This document shows positions 18,656 through 54,682 of a stretch of 64,000 nt of DNA, one piece after another. Below the pieces are notes generated by a model that did not search any database, was not told the DNA's origin, and was given only the letters and a program-made list of their open reading frames with translations. Source of the DNA: Candidatus Zixiibacteriota bacterium (GTDB lineage: Bacteria; Zixibacteria; MSB-5A5; GN15; FEB-12); contig JAVEYB010000002.1 of the NCBI GenBank assembly GCA_034003725.1, positions 265,392-329,391 of the forward strand, read 5' to 3'. The stretch's first letter is position 1, and the number at the start of each line of letters is the position of its first letter. The position numbers were made by a program, and so were the translations under genes.

Positions 18656-18754
18656 GATGTGAGCATTTCCTGTTCCCCTCACGGACGGTCGATAAACACT
18701 CAACATACCCACGGTCGCGGTCGATTATTGTTGATAACGATCAGGGAGACACAC

Positions 18755-21301
18755 ATGAAGAAACTGGTCGCGCTCTCGGGCGTCATAGTGCTGGCAGCGG
18801 GGATTTACTGGCTTCAGTACGACCGGCCGCGTTATATCACCGATGACTATCCAATCAAGGATCATCTCAGCCAGGGCGAGCGCCCCCCGAAGCCACCGGG
18901 TAAACGGCCCGGCGACTGGTTTCACGTCCAGCGAGCCTGGCCCCATGATACCCTATCAGTCGAGAAGCAATTGGTCGCAACCGAGTTCAGCCGCCAGGCG
19001 CTCGCCGCTTTCGCGCTCAAGGCCAGTGAGTCATCCGCCTGGCAGCAGGCAGGACCGACCAATATTCCGGGGCGCATTACGGCGATTGACGTCCATCCAT
19101 CGGATCTCGCGACCGTATACGCAGGTTCAGCCGCGGGCGGCGTTTTCAAATCAACTGATTCAGGTGTGACCTGGTCGCCCATCTTCGACGATGTCGGCAG
19201 CCCGGCGATCGGCGCCATCGCTATCGATCCCAGTGATCCGGCGACTGTCTACGTCGGGACCGGTGAGGCCAACCAGGGGGCCGACAACTATCCGGGGACG
19301 GGAATATACAAGTCAATCGATGCGGGGTTGACGTGGAGCCACCTCGGCCTGACCGAATCACGCCACATCGGCAGGATCATCGTGGATCCATCCAATTCGC
19401 AGCGCATCTTCGTGGCCGCTGGCGGGCGACATTTCGGCGACGGGAACCCCGTTCGTGGCGTGTATCGCTCCGACGATGGTGGCGCCACCTGGCTACAGAA
19501 ACTCTATATTTCCGATATCACGTCGTGTATAGACATCGTCTATAATCACAACGACGGCACGGTGCTGGCCGCCATGTGGGACAAAGTGCGGTATATCGAT
19601 CAGCCTACGATTCTCGGCGGGCCGAATACGGGTGTCTATCGATCCTCCAATTTCGGAGACACTTGGGCGCCGGCGGGAGGCGGCATCCCGGGGCCCTCGG
19701 ATACGCTTGGACGTATCGGACTGACGATGGCTCAGGCTTCAAACGTCGTGTACGCCATGTTTTCGAATCGAAGCGGCGAGTTTGTCAGCCTGTGGAAAAG
19801 CGTCAACAACGGGGCCACCTGGACGCGAGTGAATGACGGCGACCTGCTTGCCGCACCGTTGAACGCTTCGTGGGCAGGTGGCTGGTATTTCGGGCAGGTA
19901 CGGGTGGCGCCGTCGGATCCAGATCTTGTATTTGCCACCGGACTTGACATCTGGCGCAGCAACGACGGAGGGGCCACGTGGTTCTGGACCTCCGGCAACA
20001 TTCACGTGGATCAGCACGCCGTGTGGATCGATCCGAACAATCCAAACCGCGTATACTCCGGCGGTGATGGCGGCGTCAATTATTCGACCTCGGCCGGTAA
20101 CAGCTGGGCGGTTCGACTCAATCAGCCGAGCACGCAGTTTTACGCCATCGAGATCGACCCAAGTGATCCCAACCGTCTCTACGGCGGAACGCAGGACAAC
20201 GGTACGCTGCGCACGCTTACCGGCAACATAGATGATTGGACCGGGATTCTGGGCGGCGACGGATTCTACGTCATCGTCGATCCGACCGACCCGGACGTGA
20301 TTTACGCCGAAGCCCAGAACGGATACCTGTATAAGTCCACCGATGGTGGTTTCAACTGGGGCTGGGCGCTTTCGTCCATCAATTACAACAATTACCGGCA
20401 CAACTGGAGTACGCCGATCGCCATGGATCCGAATGACAACCTCGTGATCTACTACGGCACCAACCATTTGTTGCGCAGCATTGACGGCGCCGGCACGTTT
20501 GTCGAGATCAGCGGCGATCTGACAAACGGTCCGCATCCGCGCGGCAACTTCGGAACCATTACAACGATTGCCGTCGCGCCGTCCAACAGCAGTGTCGTGT
20601 ACGTGGGAACGGATGACGGCAACGTCTGGGTGAGTCAGAATGTCGGCGCAGGCAATACGTGGACCAGACTCGATGCCAGTCTGCCAGACCGCTGGGTGAC
20701 ACGGGTGAATGTTGATCCGCACCACGCGAACATCGCCTACGTCACCTTTTCCGGTTTCTGGGACGGGGAACCGCAGCCGCACATATTCCGGACCGAGAAC
20801 TATGGTGCGAATTGGACCGACATCGGTACGGGGCTTCCTGACTCTCCTATCAATGACGTTATCCCTGATCCGGAAGACTCATTGACGCTCTTCATCGGTA
20901 CCGACTACGGAGTGTTTACGACAATCAACCTAGGTGCGAGCTGGGCGCCGCTCGGTACCGGGCTTCCGGTAATTCCGGTTCACGATCTGGCCTTTGACCC
21001 CGGTACTCGGCTGCTGGCGGCAGGTACCCATGGCAGGTCGATGTTCACCATCGATCTGGGCGGATGCTGCACGGGACAATCGGGTAACGTCAACGATAAT
21101 ATCGCCGGTACAGTAGATCTCTCCGACCTCATCTACCTGGTCAACGCGCTTTTCCAGGGCGGACCACTGCCACCGTGCAGTGCAGCAGCCAATGTCAACG
21201 GGGACTCGAACTGTGATATCGATTTGTCCGACCTGGTCTTCCTCGTAAACTACCTGTTTATGGGAGGCCCGGCTCCGATGCCGTGCATTGCGGGCTGCTA
21301 A
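18755..21301 (+). CDS. secreted BNR/Asp-box double beta-propeller protein (sortilin/VPS10- or GH74-like) with C-terminal double dockerin-like module
   Basis: Start at ATG 18755 (AGGGAGA SD, MKKLVALSGVIVLAAGIYWL); the ORF opens at 18659. About 11 Asp-box repeats of the S.D.G.TW type are present, such as STDSGVTWSPI, SIDAGLTWSHL and SDDGGATWLQK. The C-terminus is CCTGQSGNVNDN..VDLSDLIYLVNALFQGGPLPPC...NVNGD..CDIDLSDLVFLVNYLFMGGPAP. Confidence 0.9.
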   Translation: MKKLVALSGVIVLAAGIYWLQYDRPRYITDDYPIKDHLSQGERPPKPPGKRPGDWFHVQRAWPHDTLSVEKQLVATEFSRQALAAFALKASESSAWQQAGPTNIPGRITAIDVHPSDLATVYAGSAAGGVFKSTDSGVTWSPIFDDVGSPAIGAIAIDPSDPATVYVGTGEANQGADNYPGTGIYKSIDAGLTWSHLGLTESRHIGRIIVDPSNSQRIFVAAGGRHFGDGNPVRGVYRSDDGGATWLQKLYISDITSCIDIVYNHNDGTVLAAMWDKVRYIDQPTILGGPNTGVYRSSNFGDTWAPAGGGIPGPSDTLGRIGLTMAQASNVVYAMFSNRSGEFVSLWKSVNNGATWTRVNDGDLLAAPLNASWAGGWYFGQVRVAPSDPDLVFATGLDIWRSNDGGATWFWTSGNIHVDQHAVWIDPNNPNRVYSGGDGGVNYSTSAGNSWAVRLNQPSTQFYAIEIDPSDPNRLYGGTQDNGTLRTLTGNIDDWTGILGGDGFYVIVDPTDPDVIYAEAQNGYLYKSTDGGFNWGWALSSINYNNYRHNWSTPIAMDPNDNLVIYYGTNHLLRSIDGAGTFVEISGDLTNGPHPRGNFGTITTIAVAPSNSSVVYVGTDDGNVWVSQNVGAGNTWTRLDASLPDRWVTRVNVDPHHANIAYVTFSGFWDGEPQPHIFRTENYGANWTDIGTGLPDSPINDVIPDPEDSLTLFIGTDYGVFTTINLGASWAPLGTGLPVIPVHDLAFDPGTRLLAAGTHGRSMFTIDLGGCCTGQSGNVNDNIAGTVDLSDLIYLVNALFQGGPLPPCSAAANVNGDSNCDIDLSDLVFLVNYLFMGGPAPMPCIAGC
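21065..21298 (+). other. CC-framed double dockerin-like C-terminal module, copy 1
   Basis: It has the same architecture as 31203..31439 and 52874..53092. There is also DNA-level similarity: gatctctccgacctcatctacctggtcaac here versus gatctctccgacctgatctacctggtgaac at about 31254. Confidence 0.6.
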
Positions 21302-21520: not shown

Positions 21521-22879
21521 CTATTTCGCCATGGTCAGGTCCTGCCGGTCGAGCTTGAGTTTCTCGAAGCTGTCGGCGGAGATGACATAGTACCAGTCAG
21601 CGAACCGGTTGTTCAGGTCTTCGGAGAGCCTGCGCCCTCGCTCCACCCGGCTTTTCCACCGGTCATGTTCGGTCGATAGCTCTTTGTTGCGACGATCATC
21701 GTCACTCAGCAGCGAGTCGGGTTTGGTGCGGAACTCTTCGTTGGCCGGCCGGGGCGGCTCGTCGAACGCCTTTGTATCGAAAGTGGTCGTTACAAAAAGA
21801 TAGCGGCTCTCCTGCCCGTTCCCGGACGACTCCTCTGCGCCGTCCACACCGGCCGAAAGCGCGTCACCGGCGCCGAACAGGACTTCCCCGAACCGGAGCG
21901 TGTACGCTACACCGTCGTCGGTGAGCACCTTGAGCTCTCCCTCGTTTGAAAGTAACTGGCCATCCTGTCCGAGATAAAACCCCTTGCTCTGCAAAGACAG
22001 CACGTCGGCTTGTGAGATCGGCTCAGACGAAGAGGCCGTCAACGAACGAGACAGCCCTACCGGTTTGGGGCGCACCCCGACAATTGCGAGGCTGTCGAGC
22101 GCACCGAGCAGTCGATCGACGGCGATCGTATCGAGCGCGCGGCCGCTTGCGAGGTTATTGATTTTCCAGGCGCCGATATCGGTCCGCTCCAGCGTGATAC
22201 GATCTCGTTCCTCCACTCGCCGGGTCCGCTCATTAATCGAATAGTCATTGATCTCAACGCGGTTGACTTTGCCCCGCGTGACTTCCAGTAGATCGGTCTT
22301 AATCCAATCGCTGAAGCGGCCGCTCAAGTCGACATCGGCACGAACGGCATACACCCGTTTCTGGTCCGGCTGCCGCACGAACTTCATTCCGGCCCGTCCG
22401 GGAACATCGCGACCGAAAATGAGATCGGCGAGGACCACGTCGTTCTGCCCGCGCACCGTGACGCGGGTTCCCCGGCCGTTGATCGACGGGCTGCTCTCAT
22501 CGAGCGGATCTATCACCCCCAGCGTATCAAAATCGGCCGGCGAGTCGGTGCGGAAGTCGTCTTTCTTGAGTTCGATTATCCCCGCCGCGGTCCTGGCAAG
22601 CCGGTCGCGCGCGTCGGCCGGATAGTCGTGGTGGGATGGAATGGTCCATCGTCCATCCTTGAAATGCACTTTGAAAGGCCGCGCCGTGCCGGTTTCCTTG
22701 TCGAAGCTCACAATCTCAAGGCTCTGGGCCGCGTTCGGATCCGTGAAGTCGGCGAAGAATGGCTCGCCCTGATCCATGAAGGCCTCGGGAGTAATGCGTG
22801 ACGGCGATGCGATCCAGGCTATAACAGCCAACACGACCGCTACCGCAGCGTAGATGACGGTTTTCCGGGTCTGGTCCAT
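21521..22879 (-). CDS. DUF4340-like protein, accessory to the GldG-type ABC system
   Basis: 452 aa with an N-terminal anchor VIYAAVAVVLAVIAWI. It lies directly downstream of the permease/GldG gene, the usual partner position for DUF4340. Confidence 0.78.
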   Translation of the reverse strand: MDQTRKTVIYAAVAVVLAVIAWIASPSRITPEAFMDQGEPFFADFTDPNAAQSLEIVSFDKETGTARPFKVHFKDGRWTIPSHHDYPADARDRLARTAAGIIELKKDDFRTDSPADFDTLGVIDPLDESSPSINGRGTRVTVRGQNDVVLADLIFGRDVPGRAGMKFVRQPDQKRVYAVRADVDLSGRFSDWIKTDLLEVTRGKVNRVEINDYSINERTRRVEERDRITLERTDIGAWKINNLASGRALDTIAVDRLLGALDSLAIVGVRPKPVGLSRSLTASSSEPISQADVLSLQSKGFYLGQDGQLLSNEGELKVLTDDGVAYTLRFGEVLFGAGDALSAGVDGAEESSGNGQESRYLFVTTTFDTKAFDEPPRPANEEFRTKPDSLLSDDDRRNKELSTEHDRWKSRVERGRRLSEDLNNRFADWYYVISADSFEKLKLDRQDLTMAK

Positions 22880-22882
22880 TGC

Positions 22883-25552
22883 CTAACTCCTCATCCTTCG
22901 CGCCGTCCGCGCTCCTTCAATCTCCCGGCGGCGACGGCGAATGAAGATCACCGTTCCGAGTACCAGCGCGGGAATCGGCGGCAGCAGGACCGCGAGTGTC
23001 TTTATCCTGCTTTGGATGGCGCGAATCGATGCTTCCATCTGCTCTTTGCTGGCTAATACTTGCGCCTCTTTAGTCGCTTCGATGCCGGCTTTGACCGTCT
23101 CGAATCTGCGGTTTTCCACTTCCTGCAGGTTTCGCATCATGATTTGCTTGGTCTGGTCATCGAGATCCGAACGCGTCTGAACTTCAGCAACCCGCTCGTT
23201 GAGTCGCTGCTGCGCCTCATTAAGGGCCTGCTGGGCCTCTCGTTCGGCCTGTTGTTCTTCATCCAGACGGCGCTGGACAAACCCACGCGTTTGGTCTTCG
23301 ACCGCGGTCAAAGTACGATGCACCACTCGTTTCTTGCGCAATTCGATATAGGATGAATCCCCGACGAGTACGTCCATGCAGTTCAGCACAAAGGGGATGT
23401 TGTCGAAATTGAGCGCCGCAATGCCCTGTTGACGCAACATGAAAAACTGCTCGCCGATCAGGTCGGTATCGGCGATCACGATCGCATTGACTTTTTTGGG
23501 TGATGATGCCCCAGTTGTGTCGGACGACGGGAGTGTCCCACGGATCTGCGCAGCCAGGATGTACGATTCTCCGGCTGCCGTGCGCCGGACGTTTCGATTG
23601 AGCTGCATCCCGAAAAAGCCCCGCTGCACGAGCTGAGTGAAGTGTGATTTGCCGGAAATCCTCCCCGAACGGAGCAGCGGCGTAAACTCGAGCGGCGAGT
23701 CGATGGCATTGAACAAATACCCAGGAAATATCAGCACTACCTCCTGAAGTCCTGACGTCGCGGCGGTTTGCGTACTGAACGCTTCGCCGCTCTGATTGCC
23801 CTCGCCGACGAATACAATCTCCGGCTGGGCCTGGGACAGTTCCGGGTGCGGATTGTAATTGTCCCAGACGATTTCCGCCGGGTTCCACTTGACGCCAATC
23901 GTCGTGAGGAGGCTGTCCACATCGCCTTTCGGCTCCGGCGGCGGTCCTTGATTTTGCTGGAACGGGTTTCTCTGGGCATCCGCAGGCAGGACAGGTGACA
24001 TCGCGATATCGGACATCGGCATCGGGTCCACCAACAACAGCACCGGGTGACCTTCCAGAGTGTACGCCAGCAGGTTGTCCATTTGCTTTTGAGACAGCGA
24101 GGACGGCAGGATCACCAGGAGTCCATCGAGCTGTTCGGTAATCGGCGCATCGGCTGAAATCTGCACGACCTCGTATTGCTTGCGAAGTTCTTCGACGATC
24201 GACCATGCCGGTTTGTTCTGCATGGTCTGGAAGTCGAAGCCGCCGAAGACATCGACACCGGTGCGAAGGACGCCGACTTTCTTCCGTGCGGTCTGCGCGA
24301 CGGTGCGAATGGAGCGAGTGAGTTCGTATTCTACCGGCAGACCACGGTCGAAGAACGGGATTACCTCCTCGCCTGCGCCGCTGGTGAAAGCTATCCCGGC
24401 AAACACCATCTGTGTGCTTGTGCGGCTGCCGACGTCGACAACCATGTCTCTCGGCACGATACCGAACTTTTCCCGGGCGTCGCGAGCGGCATCGGAATAC
24501 GGCTCCGTATCATGTATAAGGACCTGCACCCTGCCCGCGCCGATCGCGCCGATCTCCTGCAGCATTGCAAGCAGGTTTGCCCGCGTTTCGACGTACGCCT
24601 GGGGCACGTCGGGCGAAATGAATGCCTGGATCAGGACCGGCCGGTCACCGGGTATCTCGTCGAGCAACTCCTCCGTCTGATCGGACAGCGAGTGCAGTCC
24701 CTCCGCTGTTACATCCAGGCGAGGACTGATCCGGTCGAGGATCACGTTGATGCTCACGACCGCCACGACGACAGCAATCGCTCGAATCAACTGGTGTCGC
24801 CAGTAACCGGCACCGCCGTTCTGCTGGGGCCAGTGGCGGCGACCCAACAGCAATACGTTGAAGTAGAGCATCACGCCGGCAAGCGATACGAAGTACAGGA
24901 CGCTCGACAGGGAGATCACGCCCCGTGCGAAGTCGCCGAAGTAGTCGAAGATGCCCATTGGCGCCAGCCGCTGCTGCAACCACTCGTTGACGACCCACTG
25001 GCGGGAGGTGACGAAAATGAGAAATGAACACAGCGCCGCGCCGAGCACGAAGGCGACGGTCGAGTTTCGCGTCAGCAACGACGCCACCATACCGACCGCG
25101 ATCAAAGCGCAGCCCAGCAGCCAGTATCCGACGTAGTTGCCCACCATCAAACCGAGATCCGGCGACCCCAGCCATCCCAGAACAAACACATGGCTTGCCG
25201 ACAGCAATAACGATCCGGTATACACGCCGACCACCGCGAGATACTTTCCGAGAACGACTTCAAGATCGGTTCCCGGAAGAGTCAAGAGCAGTTCGTCGGT
25301 GCCCCGTTTGCGTTCTTCGGCCCAGACGCCCATGGTGAGCGCGGGTATGAAAAACAGGAGAATATACGGGAAGTAGCTGTTGAGCTGGTCGAGGTTGGCC
25401 AGGTTGTTGGCAAAGAATCGTTCCTGCCAGAATGCCGCTGCGGCGCTGAGGAAGATAAACAGGGTGAGAAAGACATACCCGGTCGGGCTGCTGAACCAAC
25501 TGCGGAAATCGCGCCTGGCGACGGCGAGAACGAACTGGCGATTGATACTCAT
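22883..25552 (-). CDS. ABC-2 permease (GldF-like) fused to GldG-like periplasmic domain, with coiled-coil and C-terminal TM anchor
   Basis: 889 aa. The N-terminal ~250 aa are a polytopic ABC-2 permease ([28 protein letters not shown]...). This is followed by a GldG-like soluble domain, a Gln/Glu-rich coiled coil ([22 protein letters not shown]) and a terminal TM helix. The ATG overlaps the ATPase stop (ATGA). Confidence 0.85.
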
Positions 25553-26319
25553 GCCGCACCCCCCTCTTCCGCGACGCTTCCCGGGGCCCGGCCGTAATCG
25601 GTCATGCGATAGAAGGTCTCTTCGAGCGAGCCGGATGATCTCAACTGGTCCGGGCTGCCGTCGAACTTCAGTCGTCCGTTGTGTACCAGCAGCACTCTGT
25701 CCGCGACCGCATCGACCTCCTGCAGGATGTGCGTCGAGATCAGAATCGTTTTGTCCCGTCCGAGCTCGCGAATATCGCGCCGGAAATCGCGGATCTGGTT
25801 GGGGTCAAGCCCCGCGGTCGGCTCATCCATAATCAGCACGGCCGGGTCGTGCAGCAGGGCCTGGGCAAGCCCCGCCCGCTGTCGGTATCCGCGGGAGAGC
25901 TTGCCAATCGGTTTGTCGAAGACCAGATCAAGCGCGCACTGTCCAGCGACTTTTTGGATCCGGTCCTCGAGCGGCGCCCCGGTCAGCCCACGCGCCTCTC
26001 CGAAGAAGGCGAGCAACTCGCGCGGCGTCATGTCGTCGTACAACGGACCGTTCTCGGGCAAATAGCCGATAGTGCGGGCCGCGGCAAGACGGTCCGTCCG
26101 CACATCCCGCCCGGCTATCCGCACTGCCCCGCTGCTGGGGGCAAGATAGCCGGTCAGGATTTTCATGGTTGTGGTTTTGCCGGCGCCATTGGGGCCGAGA
26201 AAGGCGACTACCTGCCCGCGCGGAATCGAGAACGAAATATCCTCAATCGCGACAAAAGAGCCGTAGTACTTGCACAGCGATTGTGCCTCAATCATCACCT
26301 CGTAATCTTCGTGGCTCAC
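25549..26319 (-). CDS. ABC transporter ATP-binding protein (GldA-like)
   Basis: 256 aa with Walker [10 protein letters not shown], signature LSRGYRQR and Walker [15 protein letters not shown] start with a CGAGGT SD. Confidence 0.93.
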
Positions 26320-30499: not shown

Positions 30500-30527
30500 T
30501 TGTCAATTTGCCGCCGATCAGTATATT
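30500..30527 (+). promoter_or_regulatory. candidate promoter for the cohesin-like/dockerin-like gene
   Basis: TTGTCA (30500..30505), a 16-nt spacer, then TATATT (30522..30527). Confidence 0.3.
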
Positions 30528-30641
30528 AAGTCGGTACGCCGCGTCGGCGGGGCACCAATGCTTTTGCAGCCTTAAAGTTACTGCTCTGCTTCAAAGTACT
30601 GCTTTGTGCTGCACGGAAGATCGTATGAGGTAAAAAGCCGG

Positions 30642-31442
30642 ATGTCGCGTCTGCACCGTTACCAACGGTACGCCCTCGGAATGTGCCTGACTCTGGGCCT
30701 GCTCTGTCTGCTGCCCGGGCAGGAAGTTCAAGCGCAGGCCGAAGACCCTGGCGTTGCAGACACGGTTTCCGTGGACAGTCTCACGGTGGGGTTCGGAATC
30801 TCGTCGGTGGTGGGCATCCATCTCGCAAACGATGAGGCGCTGTCGGCAGTGGAAGTTACCATCAAGGCGTCAGACACGCTGGTCGCGATTGACTCCGCCT
30901 CCTTTCTAAACGGCCGACTGGCCGGCTATTTCGTAAAAGGCTGGGCGATCGATGACTCCAGCGGCGCCGTAACGTTTTACTGCTACCCTTCGGATGAACC
31001 GCTCCTGCAGCCCGGCACCGGACTTCTGGCGACTATTCACTTCTCTCATGAAATACTCCCGTTTTTCCCATACGACATTACGATCGACTCAGTTACCGTC
31101 GAGTTCGACCTGATTTACCGGACAACGGCACTTCGGGACAGTTTGGGAACGGTGTTTACGCCCCAATTCCGGTCCGGGATCCTACGTATCGTGGGCCAGA
31201 GTTGCTGCACGGGCTTCACCGGAAACATCAACGGTGACAGCGCAGGATCGGTGGATCTCTCCGACCTGATCTACCTGGTGAACTTTCTCTTCCTCGGGGG
31301 AGTCGAACCAATTTGCGGTGCCGCGTCCAACATCAACGGCGATGAGGGGTGTAGTATTGACCTGTCCGACCTGATTTATCTGGTCAATTTCCTCTTCCTG
31401 GGGGGGCCGAACCCTGCTGCCTGCCTGCCGTCCTGCGGCTGA
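30642..31442 (+). CDS. small secreted protein: cohesin-like beta-sandwich domain plus double dockerin-like module
   Basis: Signal peptide MSRLHRYQRYALGMCLTLGLLCLLPGQEVQAQA. The N-domain follows the cohesin pattern: VGIHLANDEALSAVEVTIKASDTLVAIDSASFLNG...GAVTF...GTGLLATIHFS...ITIDSVTVEFD...SGILRIV. The C-terminus is CCTGFTGNINGD..VDLSDLIYLVNFLFLGG..P.C...NINGD..CSIDLSDLIYLVNFLFLGGPNP. Confidence 0.8.
   Translation: MSRLHRYQRYALGMCLTLGLLCLLPGQEVQAQAEDPGVADTVSVDSLTVGFGISSVVGIHLANDEALSAVEVTIKASDTLVAIDSASFLNGRLAGYFVKGWAIDDSSGAVTFYCYPSDEPLLQPGTGLLATIHFSHEILPFFPYDITIDSVTVEFDLIYRTTALRDSLGTVFTPQFRSGILRIVGQSCCTGFTGNINGDSAGSVDLSDLIYLVNFLFLGGVEPICGAASNINGDEGCSIDLSDLIYLVNFLFLGGPNPAACLPSCG
31203..31439 (+). 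other. CC-framed double dockerin-like C-terminal module, copy 2
   Basis: See 21065..21298. There are two EF-hand-like N(V/I)NGD...DLSDL(I/V)(Y/F)LVN.LF.GGP.P segments. Confidence 0.6.
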
Positions 31443-31523
31443 GTCTGGATTCCGAAACAAGTAGACTGATCGGTGATTTTGCGGGCGGCGTGGTGACCGG
31501 GGATTCTTACCGGAAGCAAAAAG

Positions 31524-31596
31524 AGCCACCGCGCAGGCTCGAACTGCGGACCTGCTGATTACGAATCAGCTGCTCTACCAACTGAGCTACGGTGGC
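31524..31596 (-). tRNA. tRNA-Thr (anticodon CGT)
   Basis: The reverse complement folds as GCCACCG TA GCTC AGTTGGTA GAGC A GCTGA TTCGTAA TCAGC AGGTC CGCAG TTCGAGC CTGCG CGGTGGC T (73 nt). Confidence 0.9.
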
Positions 31597-32366: not shown

Positions 32367-32984
32367 CTACCCCAATCGACGCAGGAGCCCGACCACTTTG
32401 CCGGCGATTCGGAACTCTCCCGAACTCCTCTCCACGATGATCGGGGCGAAGGAATCGTTCGCCGGCTCGAGGACTACCCGGGTCTTTTGCGGCACGTAGC
32501 GCTTGACGGTCGCTTCGCCGTTTATCAGCGCCACGACGATTTCACCTTTCTGCGCCGTGTCTTGCTTTTTGACAACGACAACGTCGCCGTCGAGAATACC
32601 CGCGTCTTTCATCGAGTCGCCTTTGACTTTCAGCGAGAAAGAATCGCCCGACGGCAGGAACGTGAAGTCTACCGCGATTTCCCCTTCGATATTCTCGATC
32701 GCGTCAATCGGCGATCCCGCGGGAACCGAGCCTACCAGCGGAACCCGGCCCACCTGCCCTGCCAATGGCCTGGTCAGTTCCAGCCCGCGCGAGATAAACT
32801 CCTGCTTTTTCAGTAATCCCTTTTTCAGGAGGGCGCTTATGTGCGTGCGGACACCGTTCGTGGATCGAATACCAAACGCCTCGCCGATTTCCCGTATGGT
32901 GGGCGCGTGTCCTCGGGACACGATGCGGTCCTGAATGAACTGGAAAATCGCGCGCTGCTTGTCTGTCAGCCTGGCTTTTACCAT
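32367..32984 (-). CDS. lexA: LexA repressor
   Basis: MVKARLTDKQRAIFQFIQDRIVSRGHAPTIREIGEAFGIRSTNGVRTHISALLKKGLL (wHTH). It also has the cleavage/peptidase S24 part VPLVGSVPAGSP...LKVKGDSMKDAGILDGD...VKRY. Start at ATG 32984; the ORF opens at 33041. Confidence 0.93.
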   Translation of the reverse strand: MVKARLTDKQRAIFQFIQDRIVSRGHAPTIREIGEAFGIRSTNGVRTHISALLKKGLLKKQEFISRGLELTRPLAGQVGRVPLVGSVPAGSPIDAIENIEGEIAVDFTFLPSGDSFSLKVKGDSMKDAGILDGDVVVVKKQDTAQKGEIVVALINGEATVKRYVPQKTRVVLEPANDSFAPIIVERSSGEFRIAGKVVGLLRRLG

Positions 32985-33017
32985 TGGGCTTCCCTTGCGT
33001 TTTCGTCCTTCCTGCTT

Positions 33018-33037
33018 ACAGGTTACTGCCCACCTGT
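33018..33037. promoter_or_regulatory. inverted repeat ACAGGT-N8-ACCTGT upstream of lexA (candidate operator)
   Basis: Perfect 6-bp arms at 33018..33023 and 33032..33037, located 34-53 nt upstream of the lexA ATG. It does not match the E. coli-type CTGT-N8-ACAG box. Confidence 0.3.
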
Positions 33038-33154
33038 TCACCTGTCAATAACAAATCTGTGGAAAAGTCCGCTTGCTGAGTTCACGTTTATCCAAAAGAG
33101 AAGCGGCGATCCGGATGCCGGATCGCCGCGACGCATAGATCATTCTGCCGATGG

Positions 33155-41557: not shown

Positions 41558-41564
41558 ATTTAAA

Positions 41565-41680
41565 CCCGGCAGCGTTCTACTCTCCCACACAGTCTCCCAT
41601 GCAGTACCATCGACGTAAACGGGCTTAACTGCTGTGTTCGGAATGGGAACAGGTGTTTCCCCGTCACTATCGCTACCGGA
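41565..41680 (-). rRNA. rrf: 5S rRNA
   Basis: The reverse complement reads CCGGTAGCGATAGTGACGGGGAAACACCTGTTCCCATTCCGAACACAGCAGTTAAGCCCGTTTACGTCGATGGTACTGCATGGGAGACTGTGTGGGAGAGTAGAACGCTGCCGGG, which carries canonical 5S motifs. Ends are accurate to a few nt. Confidence 0.9.
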
Positions 41681-41789
41681 ATATCTATCATAGTTTCTGC
41701 TGCGATGCGGTTTGGCATGCATCGCCCAACAGGCGCGCAGATCGCGCGGTTCTACGGCTTACTCTTAGAAGAGCGTTGATCGTAATTTA

Positions 41790-44803
<3,014 letters not shown>

Positions 44804-44894
44804 GATAACTCACCTAAGAGCATACCTATAGATGCAACGAATCTGCGCAGCCTGTTGGAAGATGCGCAAACCGTTTATTACAGCAGAAACTATG

Positions 44895-44909
44895 TAGTTG
44901 TCAAAGAAC
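44895..44909 (-). promoter_or_regulatory. boxA-like antitermination element in the spacer upstream of 23S
   Basis: The minus strand reads GTTCTTTGACAACTA. This is identical to the 15-mer in the 16S leader (46988..47002) and similar to E. coli rrn boxA TGCTCTTTAACAA. Confidence 0.5.
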
Positions 44910-44965
44910 CGTTGCCCGCCACCGGCGGGCTCTATCACACGCGAACTTGCGTTCGATAGCTGTCA

Positions 44966-45038
44966 TGGAGATGACCGGGATCGAACCGGTGACCTGTGGC
45001 TTGCAAAGCCACCGCTCTCCCAACTGAGCTACATCCCC
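44966..45038 (-). tRNA. tRNA-Ala (anticodon TGC)
   Basis: The reverse complement is GGGGATGTAGCTCAGTTGGGAGAGCGGTGGCTTTGCAAGCCACAGGTCACCGGTTCGATCCCGGTCATCTCCA. The G3-U70 identity pair is present. It lies in the 16S-23S spacer. Confidence 0.95.
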
Positions 45039-45052
45039 GAAATTCTCAGATA

Positions 45053-45129
45053 TGGTGGGCCTAAATGGAGTTGAACCATTGACCTCGCGCTTATCAGGCG
45101 CGCGCTCTAACCAACTGAGCTATAGGCCC
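45053..45129 (-). tRNA. tRNA-Ile (anticodon GAT), CCA encoded
   Basis: The reverse complement is GGGCCTATAGCTCAGTTGGTTAGAGCGCGCGCCTGATAAGCGCGAGGTCAATGGTTCAACTCCATTTAGGCCCACCA. Confidence 0.95.
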
Positions 45130-45286
45130 TTCCACGTAGGCCACCGCCTTACGGCAGTAACGTCATTTATATCTAAACAGCCAGCTAAAGAGCGGGCGAC
45201 ACGAAATCGCCCAAGATGCATGTCTCGAGGCTCGACCTGGATGCGATACCGGTCCGTGAGACCGGCGTGCACACCGTACTCCTTAG

Positions 45287-46838
<1,552 letters not shown>

Positions 46839-48144: not shown

Positions 48145-50334
48145 ATGTTGGAAAAACCCGTTCAGTGGCGGCTTGCTTTCTTGCTTTGCGGCCTGATCTC
48201 TTGCCTGTCCTCAGCCAGCCTTACTGCGGCGGCAGAAGACACAACTATGAGCCGGCTGGAGTATTTGGCCACGTACGGATTCAATGCGGATTCGACCCAG
48301 AAATACCCGCTGTACATCCCAGGCGATTCTACCACGTATCTCGGCCCACGACAGACACTCTTTAGCAGACAGCACATAATCAACCAGTGGGTCGATTGCA
48401 GCCCTTCCCAAATGCCGACTTTGGTGTACTACTTCTATGCAGATTATGGTTACATAGATGTCAAGGTCGAGCCAATGGATTACAGCGTCAATTGGGATTT
48501 CTACGTGAGAACCAACGGGCTTTACCCCGAATCCGGCTCAATAGTGCTCCGAGGAGATGCTCACTCCTACGGAGAAGCAGAGGAAGGGTACTTCCACAAC
48601 GATTCCAAAGACAAGTTCGTTCTGATAATGGGACCTTCGGCTATTGACCAATGCGAGGGATTCGGTTGGGTGCAGGGAGTGACCATTACGCTCACGTACA
48701 CGCCCTACGAGTGGGATCTCCAGCTTACAAACGTGACGACCAGCACAGTATACCCCCAGAACTCAGCAACCATTACTGTGAACTGGCGAAACAATAATCC
48801 GGATAGCTTGTATGCAAGATCCAAGTTCGAGTATGGGTTCGACGTTGACCTCAAGTGGACGCCACACACGTGCTATTCGTCAGTCGATAGATCTAATCGT
48901 GTCTGGGATGATATTGCTCCATACGAAACAGTCTCGGAAACGTTCACAATCAATGGTCCTCAATCAGGGGCTATGAACGTGTTCGCCGTCATTGACGACT
49001 CGCAGGAACTACCACATTCTCCCTCGGGCGGTCCGTGGAACAACTGCTCTTCCCCTTTGCAGCTGCTTTGGTCAGTGCATCTAGAAGGTCAGTTATCATT
49101 ACTTGATCCACTGACTGCCACCTACCAGAACCTCGCTGGGTTTCAGTTTGAGTTCGTGCGCCCCGGCTGGACAACCACGGTCCTCGCCCAGGTCACCACA
49201 GATGCCAATGGACACTACACGGCTGAAATAGCCTCAGGAAACTTCGATATATATGCTCGAATCTCTTCAGAACAACCACCGCCGTACTTGCCTGTCAAGA
49301 ACTATGGCACGAGCGGGTACTTCCGCAGATCGTTCAACACCAACACCACTGCAACCGCAGCACAACATACAATCACCCTCCTTATTGATAGCTCAACTTT
49401 CGTCAGCCCTGACGCACTCTATCCTGCCTTGCGTATCACTCGCGACCTCTTCACTACCGACTCCCTGTTGTCTCAGGTTGAACCGTTCAGTTTGGCGGGC
49501 TGGGATTTCCGAAGTCTCGTTGATGTTTACATGGATACATCCGGGACCGCCACCCTCAGTGGTTGGGGGTTGGCTGGCCTCAATCCAGTGATCGTAATGC
49601 CTGCGTCGGAGTATGTTAATCAGATCGCCTGCCATGAGCTTGGGCATCAAGCCATGTATATGCTACAAAACAACGTGGTGCGGCCTCCGGCGCCCAGTTC
49701 TTCGCCGCACTGGCGGAATTCGGTCACCGATACGGTTTTCGCATTCGATGAGGGGTTCTCGGAGTTCGTCCATGGGATATCCACCAAGGACGAATTGCTC
49801 CGATCAACTACGGGGCTGACCGGCCCTCATCATCTGGAAACGAACCAGTACTGGCAGGGGACGGACTCAAATGTTGCGACGACGTACGAGGCGGATAGCG
49901 TCGAAGGTTGCGTGGCAAGTATACTGTACGACTTATATGACAACCGGACCACGCCTGCTTCGCGAACAATCGCCGAAGATGACCTTGTGCGCAGTCCGCA
50001 GTATATGCTCGAAGTCATCATGAAGAGCATCTTCAACTACCGCACTGGCGGTCAACAGACGCGGGCGCTGCGCACGTTCCTGGACAGAATGCTTCACGAC
50101 CCGGCCAATCCGTGGTTCACCGATTCGCTGGTGTTCGATCCAATGCGCACTGAGATATGCAATATCTTTCGAGACAATCACCTGACGACAGACTCCGATT
50201 TCTGCCAGGCATCAAGTATAGTATACGACATCGATACCAGCGCCACATACAACAGTCGCGCGGACCGGACAACCGAATTCTCGTCACAGCCGAGCGAGCC
50301 GACTGAAACCATGAAGAACGATGGTGACCTATGA
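48145..50334 (+). CDS. secreted multidomain HEXXH zinc-metalloprotease-like protein
   Basis: GGGGAGG SD and signal peptide MLEKPVQWRLAFLLCGLISCLSSASLTAAA. It has PPC-like, CARDB-like and carboxypeptidase-regulatory-like beta domains. The HELGH motif is at codons 497-501 (49633..49647), with a downstream FDEGFSEF as a candidate third-ligand Glu. Confidence 0.83.
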   Translation: MLEKPVQWRLAFLLCGLISCLSSASLTAAAEDTTMSRLEYLATYGFNADSTQKYPLYIPGDSTTYLGPRQTLFSRQHIINQWVDCSPSQMPTLVYYFYADYGYIDVKVEPMDYSVNWDFYVRTNGLYPESGSIVLRGDAHSYGEAEEGYFHNDSKDKFVLIMGPSAIDQCEGFGWVQGVTITLTYTPYEWDLQLTNVTTSTVYPQNSATITVNWRNNNPDSLYARSKFEYGFDVDLKWTPHTCYSSVDRSNRVWDDIAPYETVSETFTINGPQSGAMNVFAVIDDSQELPHSPSGGPWNNCSSPLQLLWSVHLEGQLSLLDPLTATYQNLAGFQFEFVRPGWTTTVLAQVTTDANGHYTAEIASGNFDIYARISSEQPPPYLPVKNYGTSGYFRRSFNTNTTATAAQHTITLLIDSSTFVSPDALYPALRITRDLFTTDSLLSQVEPFSLAGWDFRSLVDVYMDTSGTATLSGWGLAGLNPVIVMPASEYVNQIACHELGHQAMYMLQNNVVRPPAPSSSPHWRNSVTDTVFAFDEGFSEFVHGISTKDELLRSTTGLTGPHHLETNQYWQGTDSNVATTYEADSVEGCVASILYDLYDNRTTPASRTIAEDDLVRSPQYMLEVIMKSIFNYRTGGQQTRALRTFLDRMLHDPANPWFTDSLVFDPMRTEICNIFRDNHLTTDSDFCQASSIVYDIDTSATYNSRADRTTEFSSQPSEPTETMKNDGDL

Positions 50335-51401: not shown

Positions 51402-51421
51402 CGGAATAGAGGGAGGACAAG

Positions 51422-53095
51422 ATGAAAACGAAACTTGTGATAGTAGCGCTGTTTGCAGCCGTGTGCCTGTCGAACGCTCAGGTACTCGCCCTCGGGCGAC
51501 TACTAATCATCACGAACGAAGAGATGAAGCCTGCGTTCGAGCACTATTCAGAATGGAAGTCGCTGTTCGGCATCCCTGCCGATATCGTCACGGTCGAATA
51601 CATCCAGACATCGTACGCCGGGGACAGCCTTCAAGTGAAGATCAGAGAGTGCCTGCGTGACTACCACAACAACCACCAGTCGGACTGGGCTATCCTCGGC
51701 GGAGATATCGACATTATCCCTCACATGATCGTTAATTCTCTCAGGGCGCATCCCGCCGGTGACACGTACTATACCAATCTGGACGGCGACTGGAACGCTA
51801 ACGGCAACGATCTTTTCGGAGAACCCCCGGGATACGGCGACCAGACGGACTATGAGCCGGATATTTTCGTCGCGCGCATCCCGTGTGTGGACAGCACCCA
51901 GGCAGCGACCGTTATTCGGAAGCTGGTCGAATACCAGTCCTGCCCGGCCGACACCAACTACCAGAATGAGGTGCTTCTGATGGGAACTCGCGTGATCGTG
52001 TCGATAGACAAGTCCGAAGACTTCTATCACCCGGTCGAAACAGAATATTTTCTGGACACCCTCATCCCCCATCTCCCAGCGAATCTCAACAGAACAAGAC
52101 TCTTCGAAGAGGCGTCACAGACCGTGAAGACGGAGTTGAGCGCCGGGTATGGCTTGATCGTCAACAACAGCCAGGCTCAATGGGCGGGCAACTTCCTCAC
52201 GCACTGGACTACCACCCCGTGGCATCGAGACGCCATTGAGTTCCCGTTTATGGCAGACTCCATGATGAACACTGGGAAATACAGCGTGTTTTTCAACTCG
52301 ACCTGCCTCAACAACTGCCTCTCCTCAACCGCTGCCATCGGCCGGCATTTTATGCTGAACCCGAATGGCGGCGGCGTTGCTTACATCGGGTCAAGCAATC
52401 TGGACTGGTTGGCCGCCAGCTACCCGGATTTCTGTTACGACATGATGGACTTGATGTTCGAGGACGGGTACGAAATCGGCAAAGCGTTCGCACTGGCAAA
52501 AGCTGCGCTGACACCCTCAGATGCCTGGCTTGACAACTACCGTCGGTTCGCCTACCACGCCTATATGCTGCTTGGAGATCCCCAGCTCAGCGTGTTCTCT
52601 GATGTCCCAAAAACACTGCGCAGCTCGCTCTCGATTCCACTTACGCCCGGCCAGATGACCTTTGTCGTGGCCGTGATATCGGACTCGGGCGAATCGGTGG
52701 CTGGCGCAACCGTATGCCTGACCCAGGACAGCACGGTATATGTAACCAGGCAGACCGATGGACTCGGGATCGCTACCTTCAGCGATGTTCTCTTTGAACA
52801 TGAAGGACTTGCGACAATCGGCATGATGAAGAGCGGCTACCTGATGCATCTCGATTCCGTGTTCGTAGGCGCCTGCTGTCTTGGTGTCCGGGGCAATGTA
52901 AACGGCGACCAACAGGATATCTGCGATCTAGCAGACCTTATGTTCCTTGTCAACTACCTCTTGCAAGGCGGGGCCGCACCTGAATGCTTTGACGAAGCAG
53001 ATCTCAACGCCGACGGTTCCATTGATTTGAGTGACGAGATTTACCTCACGAATTATTTGTTCCTGGGTGGTCAGGTACCTTACGATTGCCAGTAA
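51422..53095 (+). CDS. peptidase C25 (gingipain)-like secreted protein with double dockerin-like C-terminus
   Basis: AGGGAGGA SD and signal peptide MKTKLVIVALFAAVCLSNAQ. The C25 pattern is LLIITNEE...W.SLFGI...WAILGGDIDIIP...YTNLDGDW...EPDIFVARIP...VIRKLVEYQ. The candidate dyad is His261 (LTHW) and Cys295 (NSTCLNN), 34 residues apart. The C-terminus is CCLGVRGNVNGD..CDLADLMFLVNYLLQGG..P.C...LNADGSIDLSDEIYLTNYLFLGG. Confidence 0.86.
   Translation: MKTKLVIVALFAAVCLSNAQVLALGRLLIITNEEMKPAFEHYSEWKSLFGIPADIVTVEYIQTSYAGDSLQVKIRECLRDYHNNHQSDWAILGGDIDIIPHMIVNSLRAHPAGDTYYTNLDGDWNANGNDLFGEPPGYGDQTDYEPDIFVARIPCVDSTQAATVIRKLVEYQSCPADTNYQNEVLLMGTRVIVSIDKSEDFYHPVETEYFLDTLIPHLPANLNRTRLFEEASQTVKTELSAGYGLIVNNSQAQWAGNFLTHWTTTPWHRDAIEFPFMADSMMNTGKYSVFFNSTCLNNCLSSTAAIGRHFMLNPNGGGVAYIGSSNLDWLAASYPDFCYDMMDLMFEDGYEIGKAFALAKAALTPSDAWLDNYRRFAYHAYMLLGDPQLSVFSDVPKTLRSSLSIPLTPGQMTFVVAVISDSGESVAGATVCLTQDSTVYVTRQTDGLGIATFSDVLFEHEGLATIGMMKSGYLMHLDSVFVGACCLGVRGNVNGDQQDICDLADLMFLVNYLLQGGAAPECFDEADLNADGSIDLSDEIYLTNYLFLGGQVPYDCQ
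52874..53092 (+). other. CC-framed double dockerin-like C-terminal module, copy 3
   Basis: See 21065..21298 and 31203..31439. Confidence 0.6.
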
Positions 53096-53788: not shown

Positions 53789-54073
53789 TTTTCTCTTAAT
53801 GTCTCCGTAACAACCAGACGCGTCAGGATCCGACCGGAAGCGGTCCGGTTGTGTCACACCTGACTAAGCCGGCTGCAATCGTCCGCATCGCATTACGGTG
53901 CCGATTCTGTGCGTCCGCATGATCCTTTCGTGAAATCAGCTTCTTCGGCCCCATACGACGCGTGTTGCATTGCAAGCACTTCGCACTTCGGCACCGAACT
54001 TGCATTCTTCCCGGTTCACACGCGGAACGGGGGCACATCATGTGACAGCCTTCGACGCAGGGAGGTACCGAAG

Positions 54074-54682
54074 ATGAAACACGCGCTGCGCGCACTCATC
54101 GCCGGAATGATCATCCTCCTCGTTGGCCCGGGTTCGGACATCGTCGCATTTCCACTGACAACTATCGACTTTGATGATCTTTCCGACGGAACGTTGGTCA
54201 GTGACCAGTATGCCGCGCTCGGTATCACGTTTGCCGGATATGACATATTCGGCTCACGCGATATACGATCGGGCTATTTCGGAGGACCGTCGGGCACAAT
54301 CGTGCTCGATTCGTATTGTAACGGCGGGGGGTATATCCAGGCCACGTTTACCGGACCGGTCGACTTCGTGTCAGTCGACTTCCAGCTCTTCGAGGGCGAT
54401 GATCCGTTGACACTCGAACTGTACAATGCGGCCGGGGAAATCGTAGTCAGCCGGACGGTTTTCGGGCTCGATGATCAGTGGTACACGCTGACGGCGCGAT
54501 CTGCCGCCCAGGACGTAGCCTTCGCCCGATTCTATGGATTCGGCGACGACGGAGTAAACGCCGTGTACAACGACAACATCTCATTCGGAAACTCTGCCGT
54601 CATACCGGAGCCCGCCACATTTGGACTGGTCGGCCTGGGGTTGTTGTCGCTCGCCGTAGTACGACGGCAGCATCGGCGATAG
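54074..54682 (+). CDS. PEP-CTERM sorting-domain protein
   Basis: GGAGG SD and ATG 54074 (MKHALRALIAGMIILLVGPG). The C-terminus VIPEPATFGLVGLGLLSLAVVRRQHRR has the PEP motif, a TM helix and a basic tail. The ORF opens at 53909. Confidence 0.85.
   Translation: MKHALRALIAGMIILLVGPGSDIVAFPLTTIDFDDLSDGTLVSDQYAALGITFAGYDIFGSRDIRSGYFGGPSGTIVLDSYCNGGGYIQATFTGPVDFVSVDFQLFEGDDPLTLELYNAAGEIVVSRTVFGLDDQWYTLTARSAAQDVAFARFYGFGDDGVNAVYNDNISFGNSAVIPEPATFGLVGLGLLSLAVVRRQHRR

What the first reader, a model, noticed from the sequence alone, without database searches (positions are those of the whole stretch)
30642..31442. Small secreted protein combining a cohesin-like domain with the dockerin-like tag: a possible self-assembling adaptor
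Between the signal peptide and the dockerin-like tail, about 150 residues follow the cohesin beta-sandwich pattern. They read VGIHLANDEALSAVEVTIKASDTLVAIDSASFLNGRLAGYFVKGWAIDDSSGAVTFYCYP...GTGLLATIHFSHE...YDITIDSVTVEFD...FRSGILRIV. This matches the canonical layout of v.vpv.l...v.g.qf.l.yD..vl....v..G.l...f..n...G.i.f......G.la.i.F.v.....i.i......d..G.v.v.

A protein with one cohesin-like receptor and one dockerin-like plug could polymerise. It could also bridge other tagged cargoes, such as the BNR protein and the C25-like peptidase, in a minimal cellulosome-like surface scaffold. The cohesin call is pattern-level only.
Basis: inference. Interest (0 to 1): 0.65.

Follow-up and report, generated by a model that had tools for sequence, protein, structure and literature searches.

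The report
Small secreted cohesin–dockerin connector protein
This Zixibacteria gene encodes a small secreted protein that joins a very divergent cohesin "socket" to a cysteine-clasped dockerin "plug"; it probably acts as a connector in a cellulosome-like protein display system on the cell surface, a kind of system already proposed for a related phylum.

Summary
Window 30642-31442 (+) is a real 266-aa gene that is conserved, syntenic and under purifying selection. It encodes a signal peptide, a ~150-aa beta-sandwich and a ~79-aa C-terminal tag.

- **N-domain:** Pfam and NCBIfam do not recognise it. A profile of it finds 268 cluster representatives. An AlphaFold2 model built on 50 of them (pLDDT 91.5) matches only cohesins among the top 50 PDB hits. 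Inner domains of family members pass Pfam's Cohesin threshold.
- **Tag:** it is a dockerin variant with two 14-residue Ca-type loops and conserved cysteines. The same tag ends a BNR/sortilin protein and a C25 peptidase in the window, and the C25 copy passes Pfam's Dockerin_1 threshold.
- **Family architectures:** there are two main types, one cohesin plus this dockerin (~250 aa), and two cohesins plus a T9SS sorting domain (~435 aa). Both occur in Zixibacteria genomes.

The most likely role is a monovalent adaptor, like ScaC of Ruminococcus flavefaciens, that plugs into T9SS-anchored cohesins. Self-polymerisation, as in R. bromii Amy4, is not excluded. No binding was tested, and this protein carries no anchor of its own. 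A comparable system was already inferred in Cloacimonadota, so this is a new variant of a known kind.

The parts
30500..30527 (+). Promoter-like site, TTGTCA-16-TATATT (10 of 12 matches), upstream of the gene
   Evidence: This is a consensus match only; about 0.8 such sites are expected by chance in this region.
30627..30630 (+). GAGG ribosome-binding-like motif, 11 nt before ATG 30642
   Evidence: Read from the sequence. Orthologue P0001 starts at the same Met.
30642..31442 (+). Coding sequence of the 266-aa secreted cohesin-dockerin protein, stop codon included
   Evidence: Synteny is conserved. dN/dS is 0.17.
30642..30740 (+). Signal peptide, residues 1-33, with predicted cleavage after AQA
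   Evidence: Read from the sequence. It is modelled as a helix followed by coil. The mature N-terminus starts the conserved DPGxPDT motif.
30744..31196 (+). Divergent cohesin domain, residues ~35-185, a beta-sandwich
   Evidence: AF2 pLDDT is mostly above 90. The Foldseek top 50 are all cohesins. The family profile hits only cohesins among PDB sequences, best E=0.0033. It is homologous to Pfam-positive cohesin domains in P0014 and P0020. Pfam gives no direct hit.
31203..31439 (+). Cys-flanked dockerin-type module, residues 188-266: CC, then repeat 1 (31224-31292), a linker Cys, repeat 2 (31329-31397), then C-x3-C at the end
   Evidence: The family profile hits C. thermocellum type I dockerins, 4fl4_A E=5.4e-5. 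11 of 50 family members hit Pfam Dockerin_1. There is no direct Pfam hit for this copy. The model shows two helices per the dockerin pattern, plus isolated bridge residues at 192 and 260 that may pair.
18659..21301 (+). 880-aa BNR/Sortilin-Vps10 protein ending in the same tag (repeats at 21086-21154 and 21191-21259); a candidate cargo
   Evidence: Pfam Sortilin-Vps10, 5e-23. Tag HMM, 1.5e-28. Its tag is 63% identical to the target's tag.
51422..53095 (+). 557-aa Peptidase_C25 (gingipain-like) protein ending in the same tag (about 52871-53092); a candidate cargo
   Evidence: Pfam Peptidase_C25, 2.4e-44, and Dockerin_1 at 23.8 bits against a cut-off of 22.9. Tag HMM, 1.6e-23.

Best explanation
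**What the protein is.** It is exported by Sec. After signal-peptide cleavage it is a compact two-module unit: a divergent cohesin (the receptor module) joined by only about 3 residues to a dockerin (the Ca-loop plug module). The dockerin is probably clasped by disulfides between its conserved CC, linker and C-terminal cysteines.

**Most likely role (inferred).** It is a monovalent connector in a non-cellulosomal cohesin-dockerin display system of Zixibacteria.
- Its dockerin has almost the same helix residues as the tags on the BNR/sortilin protein and the C25 peptidase. It would therefore plug into the same receptors as those cargoes.
- The best receptor candidates are the tandem-cohesin proteins with a T9SS C-terminal sorting domain found in Zixibacteria genomes. 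These would be fixed to the outer membrane.
- Its own, more divergent cohesin then offers a further socket. This would extend or diversify what can be attached, as ScaC does in Ruminococcus flavefaciens.

**Shown:** gene reality, both folds and homologies, tag sharing, the family architectures, and their presence in Zixibacteria.

**Inferred:** every binding step, the disulfide clasp, and that this particular genome carries the T9SS-anchored partners.
For: **Cohesin**
- AF2 model with pLDDT 91.5.
- Foldseek top 50 are all cohesins, for example 4ums at 3.8e-9 and 4uyq_A with TMt 0.80. They include the non-cellulosomal A. fulgidus cohesin 2xdh.
- The profile hits only cohesins among PDB sequences.
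- A profile built only from the window's subfamily hits both domains of P0014 and all four of P0020. Their inner domains pass Pfam Cohesin (28.9 and 77 bits against a cut-off of 24.1).

**Dockerin**
-.

**Shared tag**
- It is found on three proteins in the window and on PKD, Fib_succ_major and other proteins of Zixibacteria.

**Family**
- There are 268 representatives. About 46 of the best 150 are cohesin plus dockerin, and about 52 are one or two cohesins plus a T9SS-type tail.
- Por_Secre_tail is confirmed in P0016, at 31.7 bits against a cut-off of 27.
- Both architectures occur in MAGs named Zixibacteria.

**Precedents**
- Monovalent adaptor scaffoldins such as ScaC (PMC4959524).
- A CTD-anchored cohesin scaffoldin plus dockerin-tagged C25 peptidase, inferred in Cloacimonadota (PMC8542988).
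Against: - No cohesin-dockerin contact was modelled or measured.
- The window holds no second cohesin and no T9SS-tailed ORF. The anchoring partner is documented only in other Zixibacteria genomes.
- The gene sits alone among housekeeping genes, not with cargo or scaffold genes.
- Its dockerin is of the same type as the cargo tags. Nothing marks it as a specialised adaptor dockerin.
- The near absence of a linker is unlike classical scaffoldins.
- The strongly conserved polar motifs (DPGxPDT, NDE, DSxSFxGxR) are not features I know from canonical cohesins. They could mark a different ligand site.
Confidence: 0.45

Rival explanations
1. Self-polymerising unit. The cohesin recognises the common tag, including its own, so molecules join head to tail into chains or a matrix that can also capture tagged cargo.
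For: - The protein has one socket and one plug with no other module.
- All three tags in the window share nearly the same helix residues, so a cohesin that binds one would probably bind its own.
- The 3-residue linker makes binding within one molecule sterically unlikely, which leaves binding between molecules (inference).
- There is a measured precedent: the cohesin of R. bromii Amy4 binds its own dockerin (PMC4611034).
Against: - No interaction data exist.
- The window's cohesin subfamily is only about 25-40% identical to the other family cohesins. This fits a changed specificity as well as it fits self-recognition.
- Uncontrolled polymerisation would compete with cargo display.
Confidence: 0.2
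2. The protein is an ordinary tagged cargo. Its cohesin-fold domain binds something other than a dockerin, for example a glycan, a mineral or cell surface, or another protein. The dockerin merely tethers it like the BNR and C25 proteins.
For: - The invariant polar residues (D40, D84, S85, R92, D149, and the N-terminal DPGxPDT) are family-specific.
- Pfam's Cohesin model does not see this domain at all.
- In large relatives the family domain sits beside BACON and Ig-like binding modules, and one relative carries a TonB_C module.
Against: - The closest structures are all dockerin-binding cohesins rather than CBMs.
- The same domain type is repeated in tandem on T9SS-anchored proteins, the layout of a scaffoldin.
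- Dockerin-tagged partners are plentiful in the same phylum.
Confidence: 0.2
3. The Cys-rich tag is mainly an export or envelope-retention signal of this diderm phylum, not a cohesin ligand. It would be functionally parallel to the T9SS C-terminal domain that replaces it in paralogues.
For: - In the family, the tag and the T9SS sorting domain occupy the same C-terminal position on otherwise similar proteins.
- The tag follows its passenger domain with almost no linker and has conserved cysteines.
- No T9SS-tailed protein is seen in the window, although three tagged proteins are.
Against: - The tag is clearly homologous to true dockerins.
- It occurs near the N-terminus of P0012 as predicted (which could be a truncated gene model), and P0010 has an additional canonical dockerin repeat near its N-terminus besides the C-terminal tag. 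This argues against a strictly C-terminal sorting signal.
- Cohesins co-occur in the phylum.
Confidence: 0.1

Closest known systems
ScaC of Ruminococcus flavefaciens (monovalent adaptor scaffoldin)
   Same: A monovalent adaptor that carries a cohesin widening the range of dockerin proteins that can join the complex (PMC4959524 discussion and its reference 7). From my own knowledge, not checked here because the ScaC paper was not held: ScaC is also a small secreted protein with one cohesin and one C-terminal dockerin and no enzyme. The R. flavefaciens ScaC cohesin structure 5lxv is among the best fold matches.
   Different: - ScaC comes from a Gram-positive cellulolytic Firmicute with sortase-anchored ScaE.
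- Sequence identity is only about 10-15%.
- The protein here has almost no linker, 14-residue Ca loops, a cysteine clasp, non-cellulolytic cargo (BNR, C25 peptidase, PKD) and probable T9SS-based anchoring.
- Binding is measured for ScaC but not here.
Cellulosome-like system inferred in Cloacimonadota 'Ca. Stygibacter' (Williams et al. 2021, PMC8542988)
   Same: It is in the FCB-group candidate phyla. It has dockerin-tagged secreted enzymes, including a gingipain-like C25 peptidase, and a cohesin scaffoldin with a conserved C-terminal domain for surface attachment. It too is inferred from genomes only.
   Different: - That scaffoldin is one giant protein (3,755 aa) with cohesins and CBM2/CBM3 modules.
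- No small cohesin-dockerin connector was described there.
- Here the family consists of small 250-aa and 435-aa proteins whose N-terminal cohesins escape Pfam.
Amy4 of Ruminococcus bromii (amylosome)
   Same: [quoted passage not shown] Its cohesin binds its own dockerin as well as those of other enzymes, which gives possible multimers (PMC4611034).
   Different: Amy4 is a 1,356-aa amylase with a catalytic GH13 module, from a Gram-positive bacterium. Its interactions were measured.
Non-cellulosomal cohesin and dockerin modules of Archaeoglobus fulgidus (structure 2xdh)
   Same: It is a non-cellulosomal cohesin in an organism that does not degrade cellulose. 2xdh is rank 9 in the fold search, at 1.9e-8. 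PMC4611034 cites the A. fulgidus papers among its examples of cohesin-dockerin pairs that presumably multimerise.
   Different: It is archaeal, has no T9SS context, and has a canonical dockerin without the cysteine pattern. That cohesin and dockerin sit on one protein there is from my own knowledge and was not checked here.

Membership tests
Cohesin (Pfam PF00963) | Beta-sandwich (jelly-roll) fold of about 140-150 residues, superposable on solved cohesins | tested here: met
   The AF2 model has pLDDT 91.5. The Foldseek top-50 PDB matches are all cohesins, with E down to 3.8e-9 and target TM-scores of 0.7-0.8 over about 150 columns.
Cohesin (Pfam PF00963) | Direct match of this protein to the Pfam Cohesin model above its gathering score | tested here: not met
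   No Pfam hits at all at E<=10. Only 1 of 50 family members gives a weak Cohesin hit, at 0.0083.
Cohesin (Pfam PF00963) | Sequence homology to accepted cohesins, by profile or by transitive links | tested here: met
   The family profile hits six PDB sequences at E<=10. The three whose molecule names identify them (4uyp_A anchoring scaffoldin C, 10uv_A 'Cohesin domain number 2', 2vn5_A/1g1k_A scaffolding protein) and 5nrk_A/5nrm_A (listed as cohesins) are all cohesins; best is 4uyp_A at E=0.0033. The window-subfamily profile hits P0014 residues 179-329 and all four domains of P0020. These regions pass Pfam Cohesin at 28.9 and 77 bits against a cut-off of 24.1.
Cohesin (Pfam PF00963) | Binds a dockerin | not testable with these tools
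This needs a binding assay.
Dockerin type I (Pfam PF00404) | Two tandem segments of about 22 residues, each a Ca-binding loop (D/N at positions 1, 3, 5, 9, 12) followed by a helix | tested here: met
   There are two repeats, N-I-N-G-D-x4-[VI]-D-L-S-D-L-IYLVNFLF. Helices are predicted at 206-218 and 241-253. Each loop carries a 2-residue insertion relative to C. thermocellum dockerins (alignment).
Dockerin type I (Pfam PF00404) | Match to the Pfam Dockerin_1 model above its gathering score | tested here: inconclusive
   This copy gives no hit. The homologous tag of the C25 peptidase in the window passes at 23.8 bits against a cut-off of 22.9. 11 of 50 family members hit, best 3.5e-11. The family profile hits dockerin 4fl4_A at 5.4e-5.
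Dockerin type I (Pfam PF00404) | Ca2+-dependent folding and cohesin binding | not testable with these tools
   Needs biochemistry.
Monovalent adaptor scaffoldin (ScaC type) | Secreted, one cohesin plus one dockerin, no catalytic module | tested here: met
   No other Pfam or NCBIfam domain was found.
Monovalent adaptor scaffoldin (ScaC type) | The same organism has a scaffoldin whose cohesins receive the adaptor's dockerin | tested here: inconclusive
   Tandem-cohesin plus T9SS-tail proteins exist in other Zixibacteria MAGs. None is in this 64-kb window. The rest of the genome could not be read.
Monovalent adaptor scaffoldin (ScaC type) | The adaptor cohesin binds dockerins that the main scaffoldin does not | not testable with these tools
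   Needs interaction assays or multimer models.
T9SS cargo (Por_Secre_tail C-terminal domain) | C-terminal sorting domain of about 75 residues | tested here: not met
   This protein ends in the dockerin, with no Por_Secre_tail hit. The T9SS tail is found only in paralogous family members.

The most novel reading that the evidence does not exclude
The ~250-aa cohesin-dockerin proteins are rigid building blocks, with almost no linker and a disulfide-clasped plug. They would polymerise head to tail on T9SS-anchored tandem cohesins and form a previously unrecognised kind of Ca-dependent surface fibre or lattice in Zixibacteria and related FCB phyla. That structure would also display peptidases and binding proteins. 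In effect it would be a cohesin-dockerin-based cell-surface layer in a diderm bacterium.
Probability: 0.12. Interest if true: 0.75.

Novelty: new variant of a known kind. Interest (0 to 1): 0.45.

Why it matters
Cohesin-dockerin assembly is best known from Gram-positive cellulose degraders. This gene represents a sizeable family (268 clusters at 50% identity) that is invisible to Pfam and NCBIfam. The family shows the same plug-and-socket logic in an uncultured diderm phylum. There the cargo is peptidases and binding proteins rather than cellulases, and T9SS sorting domains are the probable anchor.

If the interactions are confirmed, three things follow:
- cellulosome-like display extends to Zixibacteria;
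- many 'hypothetical' proteins gain an annotation;
- a compact, possibly disulfide-stabilised cohesin-dockerin pair becomes available for protein engineering.

The idea itself is not new, because a similar system was inferred in Cloacimonadota.

Tried and rejected
- **Direct searches found nothing useful.** Pfam, NCBIfam and PDB-sequence searches of the single protein gave nothing beyond a weak match to the tail of an Omp28 selenoprotein model.
- **The first AF2 run was uninformative.** It used only 5 orthologues and reached pLDDT 40.8. The run with 50 family members was used instead.
- The broad alignments A4 and A5 had no sufficiently conserved stretch. A narrower alignment, A6, worked, but its single pattern [KQA][IV]DSFSFxGG samples only part of the family.
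- **The word-indexed protein search is not a census.** With the domain profile it returned only 19 small proteins. It missed the T9SS-tailed members that were in the query alignment.
- **The genome record could not be identified.** Exact look-ups of the window protein and of P0009 found no record.
- **Gene neighbourhoods gave no functional clue.** The neighbourhoods of P0002, P0001, P0178 and P0011 show no operon with cargo or scaffold genes.
- **An anchor in the window was rejected.** There is no second cohesin, no T9SS tail and no lipobox. The PEP-CTERM protein at 53909-54682 has no cohesin.
- **Considered but not run.** Inter-domain covariation on about 55 sequences was skipped. It would be too shallow, and it could not separate packing within a molecule from binding between molecules.
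- **Literature.** No paper in the library holds both 'Zixibacteria' and 'dockerin', or the phrase 'GC-type dockerin'. Peer et al. 2009 and the ScaC paper are not held.

Full report
**The gene.** The finding's coordinates match an ORF on the + strand that ends at 31442. ATG 30642 is the probable start. A GAGG lies 11 nt upstream, and a promoter-like TTGTCA-16-TATATT lies at 30500-30527. The closest relative starts with the same MSRLHRY.

Four full-length relatives were found, at 93, 68, 64 and 57% identity. In two of them the neighbourhood is the same as in the window: ABC transporter, CcmF, phosphofructokinase, this gene, LexA (both relatives), then EF-G in the 93% relative. Against the 93% orthologue, dN/dS is 0.17. 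This is a real, conserved gene. Named relatives and the tag-sharing proteins come from candidate division Zixibacteria.

**Anatomy.**
- Residues 1-33 form a Sec-type signal peptide: a basic start, a hydrophobic core, then AQA before E34, with no lipobox (read from the sequence).
- Residues ~35-185 are all-beta.
- Residues 188-266 are the tag: CC-x-G-x-T-G, then two near-identical repeats N-I-N-G-D-x4-[VI]-D-L-S-D-L-I-Y-L-V-N-F-L-F-L-G-G (31224-31292 and 31329-31397). A Cys lies between the repeats, one lies in the second loop, and C-x3-C lies at the end.
- Only about 3 residues separate the last beta strand from the CC motif, both here and across the family.

**The N-domain is a cohesin.** Direct searches are blind to it: Pfam gives no hit at E<=10, NCBIfam nothing relevant, and PDB sequences nothing.

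A profile of the five orthologous N-domains, scored against 1.84 billion cluster representatives, finds 268 proteins at E<=0.001 and 100 at E<=1e-10. With only five sequences AlphaFold2 failed (pLDDT 40.8). With 50 family members it gave pLDDT 91.5 and pTM 0.70.

Foldseek against the PDB returns cohesins in all top 50 places. Examples are 4ums at 3.8e-9, 4uyq_A with target TM 0.80, R. flavefaciens ScaC cohesin 5lxv, and the non-cellulosomal Archaeoglobus cohesin 2xdh.

A 28-sequence domain profile searched against PDB sequences hits six chains, all identifiable as cohesins from their names or (best 4uyp_A, E=0.0033).

The link is also transitive. The profile built only from the window's subfamily hits both domains of P0014 and all four of P0020. 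Pfam's Cohesin model passes its threshold on those inner domains, at 28.9 and 77 bits against a cut-off of 24.1.

**The tag is a dockerin variant.**
- 11 of the 50 family members hit Pfam Dockerin_1, best 3.5e-11.
- The family profile hits C. thermocellum type I dockerins (4fl4_A, 5.4e-5). The alignment shows a 2-residue insertion in each Ca loop, which explains the miss by Pfam.
- A tag HMM finds the module on exactly three window proteins: this one; the 880-aa Sortilin/BNR protein at 18659-21301; and the 557-aa Peptidase_C25 protein at 51422-53095, whose tag passes Pfam's Dockerin_1 threshold.
- The helix residues of the three tags are nearly the same (LSDLIYLVNFLF, LSDLVFLVNYLF, LADLMFLVNYLL). 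They probably share receptor specificity (inference).
- Elsewhere in Zixibacteria the tag ends PKD-domain and other small proteins, and it lies near the N-terminus of a Fib_succ_major protein (P0012).
- The conserved CC, linker Cys and C-terminal Cys suggest a disulfide clasp that ties the ends of the dockerin. The model also has isolated bridge residues at 192 and 260 that may pair. The clasp is an inference.

**The family and its architectures.** Among the best 150 representatives:
- about 46 have one cohesin plus this Cys-flanked dockerin (~250 aa);
- about 36 have two tandem cohesins plus a tail ending ...GVYFYRL...KMxLLK (~435 aa);
- 16 have one cohesin plus that tail;
- the rest include large proteins with BACON and Ig-like modules.

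The tail is the T9SS sorting domain (Por_Secre_tail at 31.7 bits against a cut-off of 27 in P0016). A scan of GTDB species genomes with one conserved motif returned 17 loci. Eleven are from MAGs named Zixibacteria or Zixiibacteriota. Across the 17 loci, eight encode tandem-cohesin/T9SS proteins of 420-450 aa and seven encode ~250-270-aa cohesin-dockerin proteins; the other two are cut off by contig ends (L010 breaks off at the start of a tag, L020 within the cohesin). Both architectures occur among the Zixibacteria-named MAGs.

The window itself has only this one cohesin and no T9SS-tailed ORF. It does hold one PEP-CTERM protein, at 53909-54682.

**Mechanism.** The evidence best supports a secreted connector. 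Its dockerin would plug, like the cargo tags, into cohesins of outer-membrane-anchored T9SS tandem-cohesin proteins. Its own divergent cohesin would provide an extra socket. This is the logic of monovalent adaptor scaffoldins such as ScaC (PMC4959524). I give this 0.45.

The tag type is shared, the short linker argues against binding within one molecule, and R. bromii Amy4 shows experimentally that a cohesin can bind its own protein's dockerin (PMC4611034).

Two further rivals remain.
- The cohesin-fold domain may bind a ligand other than a dockerin. The family-specific invariant polar residues D40, D84/S85, R92 and D149, and the DPGxPDT start, are unexplained (about 0.2).
- The tag may be mainly a retention or sorting signal that takes the place of the T9SS tail (about 0.1). 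This is weakened by a tag near the N-terminus of P0012 and by the additional N-terminal dockerin repeat in P0010.

No binding step was tested.

**Comparison with what is known.** Cohesin and dockerin modules outside cellulosomes are long known. A cellulosome-like system was also inferred from Cloacimonadota MAGs: a cohesin scaffoldin with a conserved C-terminal domain for surface attachment, plus dockerin-tagged enzymes that include a C25 peptidase (PMC8542988).

The following appear not to have been described:
- this compact, almost linker-less cohesin-dockerin family;
- its Pfam-invisible N-terminal cohesin subtype with the DPGxPDT start;
- the 14-residue-loop, Cys-flanked dockerin;
- the pairing with small tandem-cohesin/T9SS proteins in Zixibacteria.

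No paper in the library holds both 'Zixibacteria' and 'dockerin', and no NCBIfam model covers the family. I rate it a new variant of a known kind, with interest 0.45.

**Limits.** The rest of the genome could not be read, so co-occurrence of anchor, connector and cargo in one genome is inferred at phylum level only. The GTDB scan used a single peptide pattern and is not a census. The disulfide clasp and the domain orientation rest on summary output from the model, because no coordinates were available.

Noticed in passing
window 48145-53095 (+): The C25 peptidase gene (51422-53095) follows two genes with no Pfam match (48145-50334, 729 aa; 50331-51401, 356 aa). Both of those start with signal-peptide-like sequences. 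The first two overlap by 4 nt, which suggests an operon. The stretch is lower in GC (about 0.53) than the rest of the window (about 0.58).
   Followed up: partly
window 53909-54682 (+): A 257-aa protein ends in a PEP-CTERM motif (Pfam 27.2 bits against a cut-off of 20.7). The organism therefore also uses exosortase-type sorting. This protein has no cohesin domain.
   Followed up: partly
window 41564-46838 (-): A complete rRNA operon (16S, tRNA-Ile, tRNA-Ala, 23S, 5S). It could place the organism precisely within Zixibacteria.
   Followed up: no
window 21521-26319 (-): A DUF4340 protein, a fused ABC-2 permease/ABC_transp_aux protein (my reading: GldF/GldG-like) and an adjacent ORF (25549-26319) lie between the BNR cargo gene and CcmF. 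The orthologous ORF in relatives carries the ABC_tran ATPase domain; the window ORF itself was not scanned. The block is syntenic in relatives. A possible link to gliding or surface functions was not examined.
   Followed up: no
tags at window 31203-31439, 21062-21298 and 52871-53092: The tags give weak matches to the C-terminal ~60 residues of NCBIfam NF045500, 'Omp28-related selenoprotein' (best 2.5e-5 for the C25 tag). Two family members weakly hit NF041540, 'GC-type dockerin domain-anchored protein'. Cys- or Sec-containing dockerin-like tails may be a wider, little-described class.
   Followed up: partly
P0011 (365 aa, Zixibacteria; locus L024 10001-11098): This is another tag-bearing protein. 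By eye its N-terminal region looks cohesin-like (…VITVYLENYQDTVGAFTLWLRF…). Neither the family profile nor Pfam hits it. It may be a second divergent cohesin type.
   Followed up: no
cohesin domain, window 30744-31196: Family-wide invariant or near-invariant polar residues are not explained by what I know of canonical cohesins. They are D35-P-G-x-P-D40-T at the mature N-terminus, N63-D64, D84-S85-x-S-F-x-G-x-R92 and D149. They might form a metal or ligand site. Cys114 is invariant in the window's subfamily and gives the mature protein an odd number of cysteines (7).
   Followed up: no
window 31523-31596 (-) and 32367-33041 (-): A tRNA-Thr(CGT) lies 81 nt downstream of the gene on the opposite strand. 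After a gap of about 770 nt containing only short overlapping ORFs comes lexA. In the 93% relative a 95-aa ORF with a weak phage-P22-like Pfam hit is called in that gap (L025 11410-11697).
   Followed up: no
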